Of a DNA stretch of 29,326 nucleotides, positions 362 to 5,766 are shown in pieces. Source of the stretch: an uncultured Thermoplasmata archaeon (GTDB lineage Archaea; Thermoplasmatota; Thermoplasmata; Halarchaeoplasmatales; Halarchaeoplasmataceae); contig CAYNQI010000004.1 in NCBI GenBank assembly GCA_964399335.1, positions 23,592 through 52,917 of the forward strand, given 5' to 3'. The notes beneath the pieces are model-generated. The model had not been told where the DNA came from and did no database searches. It saw only the letters and a program-made list of their open reading frames with translations. The position numbers and the translations under genes were made by a program. Positions within the stretch are counted from its first letter, which is position 1. Every line of letters begins with the position of its first letter.

Positions 362-772
362 TCATTTCAACGGTATGTATTTCGAGGATCGTGTGGCACC
401 AACACCCGGACCAGAATGTTCAACTTTTCCTCTTGTCATGGAGAACTCTCCGAGATAATGTCCGATCATTTCAGGTTCGATTTTTACCTCTTTAAATTCT
501 TGTCCATTATAAACAGCAATTCTCTTTCCTACGAATTGAGGCATTATGATCATCTCTCTCCTATGAGTCCGGTAAACCTCTTTATCCTTGTTTTGAATAT
601 GATCTAAAAATCTTTTTTGCTCTTCATTTAATCCTCTTTCTAAGGACCTTCTTGCTCTTGCTGGAAGTACTTCTTTCAACTCCGAAAGTGACATCGATCT
701 AAGTTCATCAAGAGTATGACCTCGATAAGTAAACTCTTTTTTCTTCCTAGCTGACAATTTTTTTCTAGCCAT
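362..772 (-). CDS. rps19: 30S ribosomal protein uS19
   Basis: EFTYRG, RTHRREMII, VYNGQEF, EMIGHYLGEFS, GATRSSKYIPLK motifs; operon position. Confidence 0.97.
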   Translation of the reverse strand: MARKKLSARKKKEFTYRGHTLDELRSMSLSELKEVLPARARRSLERGLNEEQKRFLDHIQNKDKEVYRTHRREMIIMPQFVGKRIAVYNGQEFKEVKIEPEMIGHYLGEFSMTRGKVEHSGPGVGATRSSKYIPLK

Positions 773-774
773 AA

Positions 775-1509
775 TTACTTCCTCCTTTCCTTAACATCTT
801 TCTTTTTCTTCTTTTTCTTCTTCTTAGAAGAAAGTCTACCAACTTTTCTACCTGGTGGTGCATTTGCTGAAACTGTAGAGCCAACACCAACATGCTGGTG
901 ATCTCCGCCACCATGTGGATGATTAACTGAATTCATAGCAATTCCACGAACCTTTCGAGGCCTTTTAGCTTTACTCTTATAGGCATTGAATCTCTTACCT
1001 GCTTTAGCAAATGGTTTCTCCTTATGACCGCCACCCGCAGTGATACCGACTGTAGCTCTGCATCTTCTATCTACACTCTTAAAAGAACCAGAAGGTAAAC
1101 GTAATGTTGTATATTTTCTATCTTGTGAAATTATAACAGCATTTTCACCTGCAGCCTTAACTAGTTTTCCTCCATCTAGAGGTTCTAATTCAACATTATA
1201 AACAAACATACCGACCGGAATTTTACTAAGAGGTAGAACGTTTCCTTTTTTAATTTCTGCATCAGACCCTATTTCTATGGTTCTACCAACTCTTAATCCA
1301 TGATTAGCGAGCATGAACGTGGTTTCACCGTTATCAAATACTACCTCTGCAAGTGGTGCAGTTCGACCCGGAGCATGATGTAAATCAATAACCTCTCCCT
1401 TTGTTTCCTCCTTCTTCGGATAACCAGGTTTAGCTAAATGCCTATGACTAGGTGAACGATAAGTCGGTGAGCCTTTTCCTCTTCTTTGTGGTATTATCCT
1501 TTTTCCCAT
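775..1509 (-). CDS. rpl2: 50S ribosomal protein uL2 with a poly-Lys C-terminal tail
   Basis: MGKRIIPQRRGKG start, VRGIAMNSVNHPHGGG, PPGRKVG; operon position. Confidence 0.97.
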   Translation of the reverse strand: MGKRIIPQRRGKGSPTYRSPSHRHLAKPGYPKKEETKGEVIDLHHAPGRTAPLAEVVFDNGETTFMLANHGLRVGRTIEIGSDAEIKKGNVLPLSKIPVGMFVYNVELEPLDGGKLVKAAGENAVIISQDRKYTTLRLPSGSFKSVDRRCRATVGITAGGGHKEKPFAKAGKRFNAYKSKAKRPRKVRGIAMNSVNHPHGGGDHQHVGVGSTVSANAPPGRKVGRLSSKKKKKKKKKDVKERRK

Positions 1510-1519
1510 TTAAAACACC

Positions 1520-1789
1520 TCAGAATACACCTATCCTCATACCGATCTCTTCAGCTGAATATTCATCAGTAAACTTAACAGTGGCTCTTTTCCCATGTTG
1601 GTCGATACGAGTATTCACTTTATCTACCTCAGCTTCAAAAAGTTCTTTAATCGCTTCTTTTATCTGTTTTTTATTAGATTTTAGTGAAACAATAAATTCA
1701 AGTTTATTTTCTTCTTCCATCTTAACCATTGTCTTTTCAGTTACGTATGGATAAAGAACGACTTTATGAGGGGAATCAAATTCAACCAT
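1520..1789 (-). CDS. rpl23: 50S ribosomal protein uL23
   Basis: PYVTEKT, NKLEFIV, KQIKEAIKELF, KVNT, YSAEEIGMRIGVF. I prefer ATG at 1789 (MVEFDSPH) over the track's TTG at 1798, which lies inside rpl4. Confidence 0.94.
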   Translation of the reverse strand: MVEFDSPHKVVLYPYVTEKTMVKMEEENKLEFIVSLKSNKKQIKEAIKELFEAEVDKVNTRIDQHGKRATVKFTDEYSAEEIGMRIGVF

Positions 1790-1791
1790 TT

Positions 1792-2556
1792 TTACCAATC
1801 CTCCATCTGTTCAATTGCGCTTTCACTAAATATAGATAATCTGCCCATCTCTCCACCAGGAGCTAAATCCTCTACTGTAATTTTTTCTGGACTCCTGACA
1901 GTGACACCTGGTAGATTTGAAAATGCATCTAGACCTTTACTACCTTTAGAAAAAACAACCAATAAACTATTAGGTCTTTTATATTTCCTACCTCTACGTT
2001 TACCTTTCCCCGGTCTGATCTTCTTTCCATCTTTTGCCCTTTTTATATCAGAGTACACGCCTATTTTCTTTAAAAATTCGATAGCCTCATTTGTTTTTTC
2101 AACATCCTCAATATCTTTTTTAACAATTATAGGCAAATCTAAATTTTCGCCATCGAATCGATGCCCTCTACCAACCACTAAATTCTTGTCTGATGTCGCA
2201 GCCAAAGCTGATCTTCTAGCTTTAGCTCTTTCTTTTTTGTTTACTTTCTTACTCCTGTCTTTTTCTGGTTTAGGAGGGTGTGCTCTTCTACCGCCTACAT
2301 TTGGAGGTGATTCTGCAGCTCTGTTACCATGTTGTGTGTATCTCTGTACTCGAGAAATACCCTGCCCTTTACCTACGGATTCCGTCGCATGTCTCATACC
2401 TGCTTTTTTGGAAGGACCATAAGGCTGCATCCTATTTGCCTGCTCTGCTTCGACTGTCCTTTTAATAATATCCGGTCTGATTTCCTCATCGAATATTGTT
2501 GGAAGGTTAAACTTGTTTTTTTCCTCCCCGTCCTTTCCATATATCTTCGTCTTCAT
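1792..2556 (-). CDS. rpl4: 50S ribosomal protein uL4
   Basis: IRPDII, ANRMQPYG, GGRRAHPPK, KVNKKE, VVGRGH, RPGKGKRRGRKY, LAPGG motifs of archaeal L4. Confidence 0.97.
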   Translation of the reverse strand: MKTKIYGKDGEEKNKFNLPTIFDEEIRPDIIKRTVEAEQANRMQPYGPSKKAGMRHATESVGKGQGISRVQRYTQHGNRAAESPPNVGGRRAHPPKPEKDRSKKVNKKERAKARRSALAATSDKNLVVGRGHRFDGENLDLPIIVKKDIEDVEKTNEAIEFLKKIGVYSDIKRAKDGKKIRPGKGKRRGRKYKRPNSLLVVFSKGSKGLDAFSNLPGVTVRSPEKITVEDLAPGGEMGRLSIFSESAIEQMEDW

Positions 2557-2560
2557 CTAA

Positions 2561-3559
2561 TTAGACCCCCTGCTTACTTTCTGTAGAAATGTAAGTTAAG
2601 TTCGGTTCTTCAACTTCTACACCAGTTTTACGGATCTGTCCTCTCATAAGAACCAATCTCTTAGCCGGGCCAGGTACGGTACCATGCAACAATACATAAG
2701 AATTGCCAACTTCACCATACTTTAAAAATCCACCACTAGGAGTTATCTCAGATCCATCTTCACCCGTTTTCAATACCCTTTTATTTAATTCTGTTCTTTG
2801 ATGATACCCCATCTGTCCCGCTTGCGGTACAGTAGGTCTGATATATCCTGGTATGAAAACACCTGTAGTCCCTATATTACGTTTAGATTTACTGTTTTTA
2901 TGGGATAATAGCTTCACACCCCATCTTTTGATATGACCTTGGAAACCTTTACCTTTAGTTATAGCTGATACATCCACCATATCTCCTGCTTTACCAAATT
3001 TAGAAAATTCTAAGTCTTTACCTAGTATTTCCCTACCCTTATCTATTCTTTCCTGGATAGTCCCCCCACCGATTCGCAATTCCATGATCTCCGGTTTCTT
3101 TTTAGGGAGGCCTGAGACCATTTCGGGATGTGTGTGGGCGATGATTCTAACTTCGTCAACAAAATCTTCATCAATATTTTCCCACATCCTTTCAGTATCA
3201 TAACTATTGGGTATAGGTAAGTTCTTTTTCAGTGATTTATCTACTTTCTTTGCCCAAACCTCTCCCATGGTTTTTAAACCCTCATGGGTTTCTCTATAAA
3301 ATCTTACGCCACAAACAGTAATTGGTGGAACTTCAATTACAGTTACAGGCACTCTAACTTCCTGACCAGAAGTTGTGCTTGTAGGTCTGTAATCAACTAC
3401 AAATGCATGTGTCATCCCTGCTTTATAACCGGGAAAGCCCTGCACTTTTGTAGTTCCATCTGTTTCCGGCCAAGAACGAACCTTGGGGATCATACTGGGT
3501 GCTCTTTTTCTGGGGGAATACCCCATAGAACCTCTACGTGGATGATGTGTGTCTACCAT
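2561..3559 (-). CDS. rpl3: 50S ribosomal protein uL3
   Basis: HPRRGSMGYSPRKR, GYKAGMTH, TKGKGFQGHIKRWG, VPQAGQMGYHQRTELNKR, GTVPGP; GAGGTG SD at 3565-3570. Confidence 0.98.
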   Translation of the reverse strand: MVDTHHPRRGSMGYSPRKRAPSMIPKVRSWPETDGTTKVQGFPGYKAGMTHAFVVDYRPTSTTSGQEVRVPVTVIEVPPITVCGVRFYRETHEGLKTMGEVWAKKVDKSLKKNLPIPNSYDTERMWENIDEDFVDEVRIIAHTHPEMVSGLPKKKPEIMELRIGGGTIQERIDKGREILGKDLEFSKFGKAGDMVDVSAITKGKGFQGHIKRWGVKLLSHKNSKSKRNIGTTGVFIPGYIRPTVPQAGQMGYHQRTELNKRVLKTGEDGSEITPSGGFLKYGEVGNSYVLLHGTVPGPAKRLVLMRGQIRKTGVEVEEPNLTYISTESKQGV

Positions 3560-3720
3560 AGGTACACCTCAATCTAATATGAGTTGCGAAACGTACAAAT
3601 GATGTACGTTCAAGCTAGAAGGATAAATTGACCTTCCTGCTCATGTCCATTGACCGTGACGTGCTTTGTGTGGGATCCCTATAGGATTGCCCATCACGTC
3701 TGGTCAAAGGCTGAATACAA
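3560..3720 (-). promoter_or_regulatory. Long structured 5' leader of the rpl3 operon (candidate ribosomal-protein autoregulatory leader)
   Basis: Three stem-loops visible: a nested long hairpin at 3651-3706, GAAGG/CCUUC at 3618-3636, and AACGUACA/UGUACGUU at 3590-3610. They lie between the TATA box (3741-3749) and the SD. Confidence 0.55.
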
Positions 3721-3740
3721 CAACCCATTACAGGGGTCTG

Positions 3741-3749
3741 TTATATAAA
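3741..3749 (-). promoter_or_regulatory. TATA box of the rpl3 operon
   Basis: Minus strand reads TTTATATAA; it is the only strong TATA in the rpl3-HDAC intergenic gap. Confidence 0.65.
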
Positions 3750-3770
3750 CCTAACGGTATACCGATATGC

Positions 3771-4808
3771 TCATAAATTCCACCAAGGTTGTAATATCCC
3801 TTTTAGATCACTTATGGTTGTGACAAGAGTATTTTTAGGTTCCTGCCCAGGTTCACCTATTTTCTGATCAGAAGGTGTATCTATGTCAAGATCTAATACT
3901 CCTTTCAAAATAGAGATCCATCCTTCTAAAACCCTTCTACCATAACCAGATAACATAAGATCTATGTGGGGTGCATTAACTTCACGAGCGATATCTGCCG
4001 TACTTCTGCCTAGATACTCCAATCCCCTCATATCTAAGGCTAAATCAGTAAGAGAATCTGAATGATGTGGGTCTGAGCCCCCATTTCTGATGATTATATC
4101 CGGATTATACTCTTTTATTATTGGAAATATAACTTCTTGGAAACTATAATGATATTCTGCTATGTTGGAATCCCTAGGTAATGGGATATTTATTGTAAAA
4201 CCTTCTCCAGAATCGTTCCCTATTTCTTCTATATTACCCCTACCCGGATAAAGGGTCTTTGGGTCTTGATGTATAGAGATGAATAGTACATCTTGAGTTC
4301 CATAAAATATATCCATAGTTCCATTTCCCTGATGGGCATCCGTATCTAACACACATACTTTTTTACCTTTATTAACAAGGTACTGCGCAGCTACAGCTAC
4401 ATCATTGAATAAACAAAACCCTTCACCTTTTTCCCTTCCAGCGTGATGAAGGCCACCGAAATTGATTAGTGTTTTATACCTTTTACTCAGTTTTGCAGCC
4501 TGTAATGTTCCACCAACTATCCTTCTAGCAGCTTCAGGGGCATACTTTGTTACAGGTGTATCTGGAGAGACTCTTCCACCTTCTTTGGCCAACTTTTCAA
4601 CTTTATCTATGTATGAAATAGGATGTACCAAACAGAGTTCTTTATTCTCTGCTCTTGGAGACTCCATAATGTTAAGAGCATTTTTCATAGGCTTATTCTC
4701 TTTAATCAACGATATAAATTTTGGAAAACGATCTGGATTGAAAGGATGAAAATCCCCGAAAAAATAGTTGTCATAAGCTTCATGATAAAATAGTGGTGTT
4801 TCATTCAT
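3771..4808 (-). CDS. Zn-dependent histone deacetylase / AcuC-family deacetylase
   Basis: GGLHHA, GFCLFNDVA, DTDAHQGNGT, SIHQ, YPG, GSDPHHSD and C-terminal SGY catalytic Tyr. Confidence 0.9.
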   Translation of the reverse strand: MNETPLFYHEAYDNYFFGDFHPFNPDRFPKFISLIKENKPMKNALNIMESPRAENKELCLVHPISYIDKVEKLAKEGGRVSPDTPVTKYAPEAARRIVGGTLQAAKLSKRYKTLINFGGLHHAGREKGEGFCLFNDVAVAAQYLVNKGKKVCVLDTDAHQGNGTMDIFYGTQDVLFISIHQDPKTLYPGRGNIEEIGNDSGEGFTINIPLPRDSNIAEYHYSFQEVIFPIIKEYNPDIIIRNGGSDPHHSDSLTDLALDMRGLEYLGRSTADIAREVNAPHIDLMLSGYGRRVLEGWISILKGVLDLDIDTPSDQKIGEPGQEPKNTLVTTISDLKGILQPWWNL

Positions 4809-5766
4809 TCTTCTTCCTCCTTTTGTTAGCTATAATGTGTGCATTTCGAATAGGATTTGGGATCTTGTAATCGCAATAATTTTTTACAACATCCAAAGAA
4901 GTATTAAATGAAATCTCATTACCTGGCGAAATATATATTGGATTCTTTGCTCTAGAACTACTTAGATAAGCATAGCCTATTATTTTTCCATTATTAGTAA
5001 TTTTTTTAACTGGTTCTTCATGAGAAACATCACCATTAATTTCACCGGTCAATTGACTTTTTGCTACACCTATCGTTGGTATGTCCATTTCAACACCAAG
5101 ATGGGAAGCCAAGCCAATCCCTCTTGGGTGAAGTACACCATTACCATCCACTAGTACCGCATCTGGCGATATATCTGAGGTTTTGATCAACTTTTTTAGT
5201 ACAGGTAGTTCTCTATATGCCAAATAGGTGGGTATATATGGAAAAGAAATCTCCATTTTCACAACAACATTATCGATCTCATCATTTTCATTCCAAATAG
5301 AAAGAGAACCATAAGCCTTTTTTTCACCGTACGAAACATCTACACCACCTATTATCTCTGGGTTTTCTACTTGGTCAACGATTTCGATCTTTTCTTTAGC
5401 TTTATCTTGTTCACCTCTGAGCTCTTCCAATACTGGTCTTGCTTTGAAATCAGTAAACAATACTTTATCAAAATTTTTAATTCGACCTCTTTTTACAATT
5501 ATTCCTTCACCATCTAACAATTCTTTTTTCTTTTCTACACCCATTCCAAATCCACCGATTTTACCTGTGGACATTACAACCCTGTGACAAGGTACTATGA
5601 TAGGTGTTGGATTTTCGTTCAACATCTTACCTACTGCACGAGAAGCTATCTTATCCCCTAAAGCTTCTGCTAAAACTCCGTACGTTGTAACTTTACCTTC
5701 AGGTATCTGCTTTACTATATCGTAAAAATAACTTCTGAACTCTTCAACTATTTTAGGTATAGGCAT
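4801..5766 (-). CDS. Bifunctional O6-alkylguanine-DNA alkyltransferase / endonuclease V fusion
   Basis: N-terminal TYG...SRAVG...NP..IIVPCHRVV with active Cys; C-terminal GVDVSY, YIPTYLAYRELP, VDGNGVLHPRGIGLASHLG, IGVAKS, PIYIS, PIRNAH. Confidence 0.93.
   Translation of the reverse strand: MPIPKIVEEFRSYFYDIVKQIPEGKVTTYGVLAEALGDKIASRAVGKMLNENPTPIIVPCHRVVMSTGKIGGFGMGVEKKKELLDGEGIIVKRGRIKNFDKVLFTDFKARPVLEELRGEQDKAKEKIEIVDQVENPEIIGGVDVSYGEKKAYGSLSIWNENDEIDNVVVKMEISFPYIPTYLAYRELPVLKKLIKTSDISPDAVLVDGNGVLHPRGIGLASHLGVEMDIPTIGVAKSQLTGEINGDVSHEEPVKKITNNGKIIGYAYLSSSRAKNPIYISPGNEISFNTSLDVVKNYCDYKIPNPIRNAHIIANKRRKKNE

What the first reader, a model, noticed from the sequence alone, without database searches (positions are those of the whole stretch)
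3560..3720. Three-hairpin ~160-nt leader on the rpl3-rpl4 operon: candidate new archaeal r-leader
Seen (sense strand): UGACC-a-GACGUG-a-UGGG-ca-AUCC-uauag-GGAU-CCCA-cacaaag-CACGUC-ac-GGUCA (19 bp nested, with an asymmetric 1x7 loop). It is followed by GAAGG-ucaauuuau-CCUUC, then AACGUACA-ucauu-UGUACGUU, then the SD GAGGUG. The segment is more GC-rich than other intergenic DNA here, and many neighbouring genes look leaderless. Established: r-protein operons are autoregulated by rRNA-mimicking leaders (E. coli S10 leader with uL4; archaeal L1 leader), and an L4-type candidate leader has been proposed for Archaeoglobi. Inference: a uL4- or uL3-responsive leader in a lineage where I know of none described.
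Basis: partly seen in the sequence, partly recalled or inferred. Interest (0 to 1): 0.7.

Follow-up and report, generated by a model that had tools for sequence, protein, structure and literature searches.

The report
Conserved folded leader before archaeal rpl3
The first hairpin at the start of this soda-lake archaeon's main ribosomal-protein messenger is a trimmed copy of a folded RNA found before the uL3 gene across the Thermoplasmatota; it is missing from RNA databases, appears distantly related to the "L4-Archaeoglobi" leader candidate, and probably lets a ribosomal protein limit its own operon.

Summary
On the minus strand, a 211-nt gap separates a deacetylase gene from rpl3-rpl4-rpl23-rpl2-rps19. 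It contains a TATA box (3749-3741), the 19-bp nested hairpin (3706-3651), two smaller hairpins and the SD GAGGUG.

Only hairpin 1 is broadly conserved. Extended to 3710-3647, it is the local form of a motif: nACC-A-GACnnn ... GGGCAAU-hairpin-CCC ... [second hairpin] ... nnnGUC-AC-GGUn. This motif lies directly before rpl3 in all but a few of ~130 Thermoplasmatota loci, once per genome, starting about 10 nt after the predicted transcription start.

Covariation is strong: 27 of 33 pairs change on both sides in 73 distinct sequences. The window's family (Ca. Halarchaeoplasmataceae) has replaced the second hairpin with a 7-nt bulge. Hairpins 2 and 3 are conserved only within the genus.

Rfam 15 has no match. 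RF03135 (L4-Archaeoglobi) does not detect the motif. However, my Thermoplasmatota model places its best, though weak, hits on RF03135 sites in haloarchaeal contigs, with all helices in register.

Best reading: a ribosomal-protein feedback leader, a new variant of a known kind. The ligand is untested, no rRNA mimicry was found, and the output mechanism in this genus is unresolved.

This scan has already reported the same phylum-wide leader on other DNA (e1-5614889).

The parts
3741..3749 (-). TATA box TTTATATAA of the operon promoter. The flanking sequence (ACCGTTA..TTTAAATAAC in relatives) is conserved across the family.
   Evidence: A TATA-like box lies 39-46 or 52-56 nt before the CCAGAC anchor in 79 of 117 distinct upstream regions; in the window it is 46 nt.
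3717..3721 (-). Predicted transcription start, inferred from TATA spacing and not mapped.
   Evidence: Inference and the usual archaeal TATA-to-start distance. It places the RNA 5' end 7-11 nt before P1.
3647..3710 (-). Conserved leader motif, in the P3-less form of the window's family. P1 is 3710-3702 with 3655-3647. The bulged A is 3701. P1b is 3700-3695 with 3663-3658. The unpaired AC is 3657-3656. P2 is UGGG-ca-AUCC-loop-GGAU-CCCA at 3693-3671.
   Evidence: Model R1 matches window 3641-3713 at 78 bits, E 8.5e-22, the only hit in the genome. Covariation is shown.
3664..3670 (-). 7-nt bulge CACAAAG. It occupies the place where most Thermoplasmatota leaders carry a third hairpin (P3).
   Evidence: Alignments, and A4, where about 23 sequences have gaps across P3. 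All of these have uL3 at least 69% identical to the window's.
3612..3640 (-). Hairpin 2 (GAAGG/CCUUC with outer GC..GC pairs). It is specific to the genus.
   Evidence: z = -2.33. The stem is invariant and the loop varies in length among 4 genus members. It is absent in other genera.
3590..3610 (-). Hairpin 3 (AACGUACA/UGUACGUU). It is specific to the genus.
   Evidence: z = -4.50. Only one-sided changes occur in the genus.
3568..3583 (-). Small hairpin CUCA-N8-UGAG that would pair the first half of the SD. It is marginal.
   Evidence: Its energy is not significant: z = -1.48.
3565..3570 (-). Shine-Dalgarno GAGGUG, 5 nt before the ATG.
   Evidence: It is conserved as GAGGU(G/A) across the family.
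2561..3559 (-). rpl3 (uL3), first gene of the operon.
   Evidence: Pfam Ribosomal_L3, E 6.7e-86.
362..2556 (-). rpl4 (1792-2556), rpl23 (1520-1798), rpl2 (775-1509) and rps19 (362-772), tightly packed behind rpl3.

Best explanation
Window 3710-3647 (minus strand) is the 5'-terminal structured domain of the rpl3-rpl4-rpl23-rpl2-rps19 mRNA. It is a cis-acting leader RNA that most likely binds one of the ribosomal proteins encoded downstream when that protein exceeds free rRNA, lowering expression of the operon.

The likely recognition surface is the invariant part. This is helix P1 ending in CC/GG, a 1x2 internal loop (A opposite AC), helix P1b starting GAC/GUC, and the GGG-CA(A)-bulged hairpin P2. 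uL4 is the favoured ligand only by precedent, from the bacterial S10 leader and the name given to RF03135. uL3, the first gene, and uL23 or uL2 are equally open.

Shown here: the fold, its conservation and covariation, its fixed place before rpl3, and its position right after the predicted start. Inferred: protein binding, the identity of the ligand, and the output.

In several relatives the motif is physically coupled to the ribosome-binding site, which suggests control of translation initiation. In this genus the motif lies 93 nt from the ATG behind two lineage-specific hairpins, and no convincing SD-sequestering partner was found. The expression platform here is therefore unresolved.
For: 1. 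Position. DNA similarity of 70-79% in the promoter and hairpin 1 extends across genera of the family, always before rpl3. The anchor pair CCAGAC...GUCACGG is found before rpl3 in 93 of the first 97 loci with an rpl3 hit, including Methanomassiliicoccales and uncultured Thermoplasmatales, and in 135 loci once the later-fetched ones are added.

2. Covariation. On the MAFFT alignment of the family (A1), 92% of cells are paired and 7 pairs change on both sides. On the MAFFT alignment of 36 three-armed forms (A3), 20 of 33 pairs change on both sides, with 104 such cells against 37 +/- 6 in shuffles and at most 25 when partners are slid. With 74 leaders aligned to model R2 (A4), 27 of 33 pairs change on both sides, with 524 cells against 164 +/- 15.

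3. Specificity. Models R1 and R2 give one hit per genome in 18 and 28 of 151 sampled genomes of the phylum. Every checked hit but one weak one lies directly before rpl3.

4. Promoter. A TATA box sits at a fixed distance, so the motif starts about 10 nt into the transcript.

5. Coupling to the SD in relatives. In L119 and L152 the motif ends 13 nt before the AUG and abuts GGUGAU. In L060, L063 and L064 the P1 3' strand contains GGAGG. In Natronoplasma-like relatives and L013, the bases just after P1 are an anti-SD (ACCUCAG pairing with CUGAGGU), with dG of -11 to -14 kcal/mol and p <= 0.04 against shuffles.

6. Relation to a published r-leader candidate in the same position: RF03135.

7. Weak hint of transcription. 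Contigs from RNA libraries of salt-lake samples cover 3390-3593 and 3564-3660, joining rpl3 to the leader.
Against: No experiment and no mapped 5' end exist. The RNA-library contigs are 90-95% alike, may include DNA, and one also spans the upstream gene.

No resemblance to 23S or 16S rRNA of relatives was found by motif or by covariance model: best score 7.6 bits, E above 1. rRNA mimicry therefore gives no help with the ligand.

In the window's own genus the tail after P1 pairs with the SD region no better than shuffled sequence (-5.0 kcal/mol, p 0.44). There is also no U-tract terminator after any hairpin. No regulatory output can be read from this sequence.

One family of the phylum (f20, e.g. 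L160) lacks the motif and has a short AT-rich leader, so the element is not indispensable.
Confidence: 0.6

Rival explanations
1. A 5'-terminal stability or processing element without specific r-protein feedback. The stem at the extreme 5' end would protect the mRNA from 5'-to-3' decay, or would be removed by endonucleolytic processing to activate translation, as described for long r-protein 5' UTRs in a methanogen.
For: The motif begins within about 10 nt of the predicted start. Qi et al. 2017 (PMC5499594) show that processing of structured 5' UTRs of archaeal r-protein mRNAs raises their stability and translation. No expression platform is visible in this genus.
Against: A generic protective stem would not need invariant unpaired bases (A, AC, CAA) or an invariant GGG/CCC across a phylum. 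The element occurs once per genome and only before rpl3.
Confidence: 0.15
2. A riboswitch or other sensor of a small molecule or ion that tunes ribosomal-protein synthesis.
For: In most of the phylum it is a three-way junction with conserved unpaired nucleotides. No rRNA mimicry was found.
Against: It matches no known riboswitch class. The conserved bases lie in a helical internal loop and a bulge rather than in the junction core. A whole arm (P3) is dispensable in the window's family. Association with one r-protein operon only is the signature of r-leaders (PMC7247131).
Confidence: 0.1
3. An independent small RNA gene that merely lies upstream of rpl3.
For: It has its own strong, conserved promoter. 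There is a weak sub-threshold hit to the C/D-box family sR60: 18.8 bits against a cut-off of 50.
Against: There is no terminator or U-tract between the motif and rpl3. No second conserved promoter was seen: the conserved AT-rich box before the SD lies too close to the ATG to start rpl3 (by eye). In some lineages the motif ends 13-27 nt before the AUG, so it must be part of the mRNA. There is no D box, and the C-box-like GUGAUGG is not conserved outside the family.
Confidence: 0.05

Closest known systems
L4-Archaeoglobi ribosomal protein leader candidate (Rfam RF03135; Eckert and Weinberg 2020, PMC7247131)
   Same: It lies on the same strand and upstream of the same operon, rpl3-rpl4-rpl23-rpl2. 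The architecture is the same: an outer helix, an asymmetric internal loop with (A)AC on the 3' side, a second helix of 5-6 bp, then a junction whose first arm starts GGG(U)CAAU and closes with CCC, followed by a variable second arm (SS_cons and haloarchaeal rows; Rfam consensus). With filters off, my Thermoplasmatota model R2 puts its five best hits exactly on the RF03135 sites in 5 of 8 haloarchaeal contigs, aligned end to end with helices in register.
   Different: The RF03135 model does not find the window or eight other leaders. It also finds none of 151 sampled genomes of the phylum: the best hit is 27 bits, below the 34.5 cut-off, and not near rpl3. The reciprocal hits are weak, at 11-15 bits and E 0.26-2. 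The six Thermoplasmata RefSeq chromosome accessions I looked for are absent from the paper's supplementary files. In haloarchaea the element lies inside the PF02598 methyltransferase gene about 430 nt before rpl3, which is why its authors rated it doubtful. Here it is intergenic and promoter-proximal, and PF02598 was not found in five Thermoplasmata genomes. The window's family also lacks the second arm.
Bacterial S10-operon leader bound by uL4 (E. coli)
   Same: It is a structured leader at the head of the homologous gene cluster (uL3, uL4, uL23, uL2, uS19). It is the precedent for feedback by an operon-encoded protein (established knowledge; cited in PMC7247131).
   Different: No Rfam r-leader family matched at E up to 10. 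The bacterial operon starts with S10 and acts partly through NusA-dependent attenuation at a terminator hairpin, and no terminator-like U-tract follows the hairpins here.
Structured rpl3 leaders noted by this scan in other archaeal phyla and in Thermoplasmatota (e1-5614889, e1-5295843, e1-5723445)
   Same: They are folded leaders before rpl3, absent from Rfam, with RF03135 named as the closest known family. e1-5614889 describes the three-armed Thermoplasmatota form that I recovered independently.
   Different: Those are AI notes on other genomes. The window carries the reduced two-arm form. The relation to the DPANN leaders was not tested here.

Membership tests
RF03135 L4-Archaeoglobi r-leader | Covariance-model score at or above the gathering cut-off (34.5 bits) | tested here: not met
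   There was no hit in the window at E up to 10 and none in 8 relatives' loci. In 30 relatives the best score was 22 bits, and no locus fetched for these hits holds rpl3. In a phylum sample, 0 of 151 genomes passed the cut-off. The same model scores 68-74 bits on haloarchaeal contigs.
RF03135 L4-Archaeoglobi r-leader | Lies upstream of, and on the same strand as, the rpl3-rpl4-rpl23-rpl2 operon | tested here: met
   The motif ends 87 nt before the rpl3 ATG as extended to 3647, or 93 nt counted from the GUCACGGU anchor as.
RF03135 L4-Archaeoglobi r-leader | Outer helix, asymmetric internal loop, inner helix, and a first arm GGG..CAA(U)..CCC | tested here: met
   Comparison by eye with SS_cons and the Rfam consensus. 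The alignment of R2 to haloarchaeal sites keeps these helices in register.
RF03135 L4-Archaeoglobi r-leader | Second arm (P3) closing a three-way junction | tested here: not met
   The window has a 7-nt bulge at 3670-3664 instead. P3 is present in the other families of the phylum examined.
RF03135 L4-Archaeoglobi r-leader | Detectable relatedness by a reciprocal model search | tested here: inconclusive
   The five best R2 hits in 53 kb fall on RF03135 sites in 5 of 8 loci. Chance is about 0.009 per locus, but the scores are only 11-15 bits and the eight loci are close kin chosen by one pattern.
Ribosomal-protein autoregulatory leaders (functional class) | Conserved secondary structure in the 5' UTR of an r-protein operon, supported by covariation | tested here: met
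   The 5' UTR status rests on promoter spacing and on weak RNA-contig cover.
Ribosomal-protein autoregulatory leaders (functional class) | Binds an r-protein encoded in the operon and represses expression | not testable with these tools
   No tool for RNA-protein binding is available. This needs EMSA or filter binding and reporter assays.
Ribosomal-protein autoregulatory leaders (functional class) | Mimics the protein's rRNA site (common but not obligatory) | tested here: not met
   The 23S and 16S rRNA of relatives contain no CCAGAC or GUCACGG. One 23S holds a single GGGCAAU in an unrelated context. The best model scores are at most 7.6 bits.
C/D-box sRNA (sR60, RF01309) | Model score at or above 50 bits, with C and D boxes | tested here: not met
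   The score is 18.8 bits, E 0.094. There is no CUGA D box, and GUGAUGG is not conserved beyond the family.
Kink-turn (L7Ae site) | 3-nt bulge followed by tandem sheared G-A/A-G pairs | tested here: not met
   By inspection and the alignments. The loops are A opposite AC and A opposite a 7-nt stretch of variable sequence, and neither has a conserved GA on both strands.

The most novel reading that the evidence does not exclude
The Thermoplasmatota leader and RF03135 are homologous. There would then be one ancient leader RNA for the rpl3 operon, shared by Thermoplasmatota and Halobacteriota, making it among the most widely distributed archaeal cis-regulatory RNAs and a functional counterpart of the bacterial S10 leader. 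The Thermoplasmatota copies carry no coding overlap. They would therefore rescue the doubtful r-leader assignment of RF03135. The naturally trimmed Halarchaeoplasmataceae form would also point to the minimal protein-binding core: P1, the A/AC loop, P1b and P2.
Probability: 0.5. Interest if true: 0.62.

Novelty: new variant of a known kind. Interest (0 to 1): 0.5.

Why it matters
Very few archaeal ribosomal-protein leaders are known, and to my knowledge none for the rpl3 (S10-like) operon has been tested. The only published candidate, RF03135, was rated doubtful because half of its copies lie inside a gene.

This element is intergenic and promoter-proximal, occurs once per genome, is spread across a phylum, and is supported by dozens of compensatory changes. 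That makes it a clean subject for asking whether archaea feed back on this operon as bacteria do, and with which protein.

Nature has also run a deletion experiment. The window's family lacks one arm, and one member (L019) has even lost the GGGCAAU arm. This narrows the probable binding site to about 30 nt around the A/AC internal loop.

Cultured relatives, Methanomassiliicoccus and, going by the acidophile-like leaders L119 and L152, Thermoplasma or Picrophilus, are expected to carry the full form, though I did not confirm it in a named isolate. If so, binding and reporter tests would be practical.

Tried and rejected
1. Rfam 15 found nothing for the leader in the window or in 8 diverse relatives, apart from a sub-threshold sR60 hit that I rejected for lack of a D box and of conservation.

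2. rRNA mimicry was tested with motif scans and with models R1 and R2, filters off, on the 23S and 16S of relatives. Only noise came back. A by-eye likeness of P2 to the GGGUGAUAGUCCC hairpin of 23S domain I was not pursued, because the junction sequences vary among leaders.

3. A kink-turn reading was rejected by inspection.

4. A 17-codon upstream ORF starting at the AUG in GUGAUGGG was rejected, because that AUG is missing in many family members.

5. A whole-genome pattern search (CCAGAC N30-110 GTCACGG) over 401 genomes was too loose. Reversed-pattern controls matched about as often, so it says nothing about distribution.

6. I looked for a second promoter in the conserved UCAUAUUAGA box before the SD. 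Its spacing would put the start inside the ORF, so I rejected it.

7. The pairing GGACAU (3648-3643) with GUGU-CC (3567-3561), predicted by RNAalifold in the genus, is no better than shuffled sequence. It is not claimed.

8. Of four metatranscriptome runs laid on the window, one gave nothing, one covered only the deacetylase gene, and the stretch 3661-3709 had no cover in X17. No conclusion is drawn from these gaps.

9. Literature searches for a Thermoplasmata rpl3 leader, and for HVO_2564, found nothing.

10. The single R1 hit away from rpl3 (L130, 20.9 bits, E 0.009) is taken as chance.

Full report
**Setting**

On the minus strand, the window carries a histone-deacetylase-family gene (3771-4808). 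A 211-nt gap follows, then rpl3 (2561-3559), rpl4, rpl23, rpl2 and rps19. uL3 relatives and run metadata place the genome in soda-lake Thermoplasmata of the Ca. Halarchaeoplasmataceae, next to Ca. Saliniplasma.

**The observation**

- The leader folds far better than shuffled sequence: z = -4.67 overall, -4.08 for hairpin 1, -4.50 for hairpin 3 and -2.33 for hairpin 2.
- It is GC-rich for this genome: 44% in the leader and 54% in hairpin 1, against 37.7% overall and 18-31% in other spacers.
- A TATA box at 3749-3741 predicts a start at about 3721-3717, just before the first stem.

**What is conserved**

A DNA search of 40 relatives found the promoter and hairpin 1, but not the rest, at 70-79% identity in other genera of the family. 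All hits lie before rpl3.

Reading the rpl3 upstream regions of 80 further genomes showed the same anchors far beyond the family. The anchors are nACC-A-GAC on the 5' side and GUC-AC-GGUn on the 3' side. They occur in Methanomassiliicoccales and in many uncultured Thermoplasmatales-like lineages.

Most of these leaders have three arms:
- a long closing helix (P1, the A/AC loop, P1b);
- a first arm GGG-CAA-stem-CCC (P2);
- a second arm (P3) with a U-rich loop.

The window's family has P1, P1b and P2, but a short unpaired stretch stands where P3 should be. One member (L019) has reduced P2 as well.

**Covariation**

- Plain MAFFT alignment of the family: 92% of cells pair and 7 pairs change on both sides.
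- Plain MAFFT alignment of 36 three-armed leaders: 20 of 33 pairs change on both sides, with 104 such cells against 37 +/- 6 in shuffles and at most 25 when partners are slid.
- 74 leaders aligned to model R2: 27 of 33 pairs, and 524 cells against 164 +/- 15. That alignment is fitted to the model, so it leans towards the structure. The two MAFFT alignments do not share this bias.

The bases that almost never change (all at 96% or more of the 73 sequences) are the CC/GG end of P1, the GAC/GUC start of P1b and the GGG/CCC of P2. The unpaired A, AC and CAA are invariant in both MAFFT alignments apart from the one reduced member, L019.

**Specificity and position**

Models R1 and R2 give one hit per genome. 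All checked hits but one weak one are directly before rpl3.

The models miss real copies under the strict filters used for large searches. L161 and L162 carry the motif by eye, and R2 does find them in a smaller search. One family (f20) truly lacks it.

A TATA-like box sits at a near-fixed distance from the motif, so the fold begins about 10 nt into the transcript. The distance from the motif to the AUG ranges from 13 to about 190 nt.

**Relation to known RNAs**

Rfam 15 has no match.

The closest published element is the L4-Archaeoglobi candidate, RF03135. It lies upstream of the same operon and was rated borderline by its authors, because 54% of copies lie inside a PF02598 methyltransferase gene. 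Its seed alignment includes haloarchaea. Its consensus has the same layout, including a first arm starting GGGUCAAU and an AAC-containing 3' loop.

The RF03135 model does not detect any Thermoplasmatota leader.

For the reverse test I fetched haloarchaeal contigs with an RF03135-derived pattern. RF03135 scores 68-74 bits there. R2 with filters off put its five best hits, at 11-15 bits, exactly on those sites in 5 of 8 loci, with all four helices in register. This supports a distant relationship. The loci are close kin, however, and the scores are weak, so I rate homology at about even odds.

In those contigs the site lies within the PF02598 gene, about 430 nt before rpl3. PF02598 was not found in five Thermoplasmata genomes. 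The Thermoplasmatota copies are therefore free of coding constraints.

**Mechanism**

Exclusive linkage to one r-protein operon, invariant unpaired bases inside helices, and the precedent of r-leaders all point to feedback by an operon-encoded protein.

Coupling to the ribosome-binding site is visible in several lineages:
- The SD abuts P1 in L119 and L152.
- GGAGG lies within the P1 3' strand in L060, L063 and L064.
- A perfect anti-SD follows P1 in Natronoplasma-like relatives and in L013.

In the window's genus no such partner stands out. Hairpins 2 and 3 are kept in the four genus members without compensatory change, and no U-tract terminator is present.

No rRNA mimicry was found. The ligand and the output in this genome remain open.

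RNA-library contigs joining rpl3 to 3660 are a weak hint that the long leader is transcribed.

**Verdict**

Hairpin 1 is a real, conserved, covarying leader domain. Hairpins 2 and 3 are local additions. The element is best filed as a new, reduced variant of the RF03135-like rpl3 leader kind, not as a member of RF03135 as defined.

This scan has already reported the three-armed Thermoplasmatota form on other DNA (e1-5614889). I recovered it independently. This report adds three things: the reduced form, the reciprocal model test, and the contrast in coding overlap.

Noticed in passing
L043, L044, L045, L052, L053 and L013 (rpl3 leaders of Natronoplasma-like relatives): The bases immediately after P1 (GGACCUCAG) are a perfect anti-Shine-Dalgarno for CUGAGGU 100-190 nt downstream. 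dG is -11 to -14 kcal/mol, against about -6 for shuffles. The window's genus lacks this.
   Followed up: partly
L119, L152 (motif ends 13 nt before AUG); L060, L063, L064 (22-25 nt): In some Thermoplasmata lineages the motif abuts the SD GGUGAU, or carries GGAGG in the 3' strand of P1. A bound protein or the helix itself would then cover the ribosome-binding site.
   Followed up: partly
L207:3954-4823 with the RF03135 site at 4300-4399, and seven similar haloarchaeal contigs: In haloarchaea the RF03135 element sits in the middle of the PF02598 putative RNA methyltransferase gene that precedes rpl3. PF02598 was not found in five Thermoplasmata genomes, three of them complete.
   Followed up: partly
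window 4801-5766 (minus strand): A single 321-aa ORF joins an O6-methylguanine-DNA-methyltransferase DNA-binding domain (residues 9-89) to endonuclease V (123-310). From memory, a similar fusion has been described in acidophilic Thermoplasmata.
   Followed up: no
L041 (contig PWEN01000063.1): A contig filed under a Candidatus Nealsonbacteria (bacterial) MAG carries an archaeal rpl3 73% identical to the window's, together with the leader motif. It is probably a mis-binned Halarchaeoplasmataceae contig.
   Followed up: no
window 3751-3760 and the equivalent in L005-L019: The sequence around the TATA box (ACCGTTACATTTAAATAAC), and a TAATG element about 20 nt downstream, are conserved nearly base for base across genera. 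That is more than a generic archaeal promoter would need.
   Followed up: no
window 3571-3583 and relatives: An AT-rich box (UCAUAUUAGA or AAAUAGA) just before the SD is conserved in sequence across the family. It is too close to the ATG to act as a promoter for rpl3, and its function is unknown.
   Followed up: partly
L160 (genome G040, family f20): One family of the phylum has no leader motif before rpl3, only a short AT-rich spacer with a TATA box about 30 nt before the ATG (no model hits in 8 genomes sampled).
   Followed up: partly
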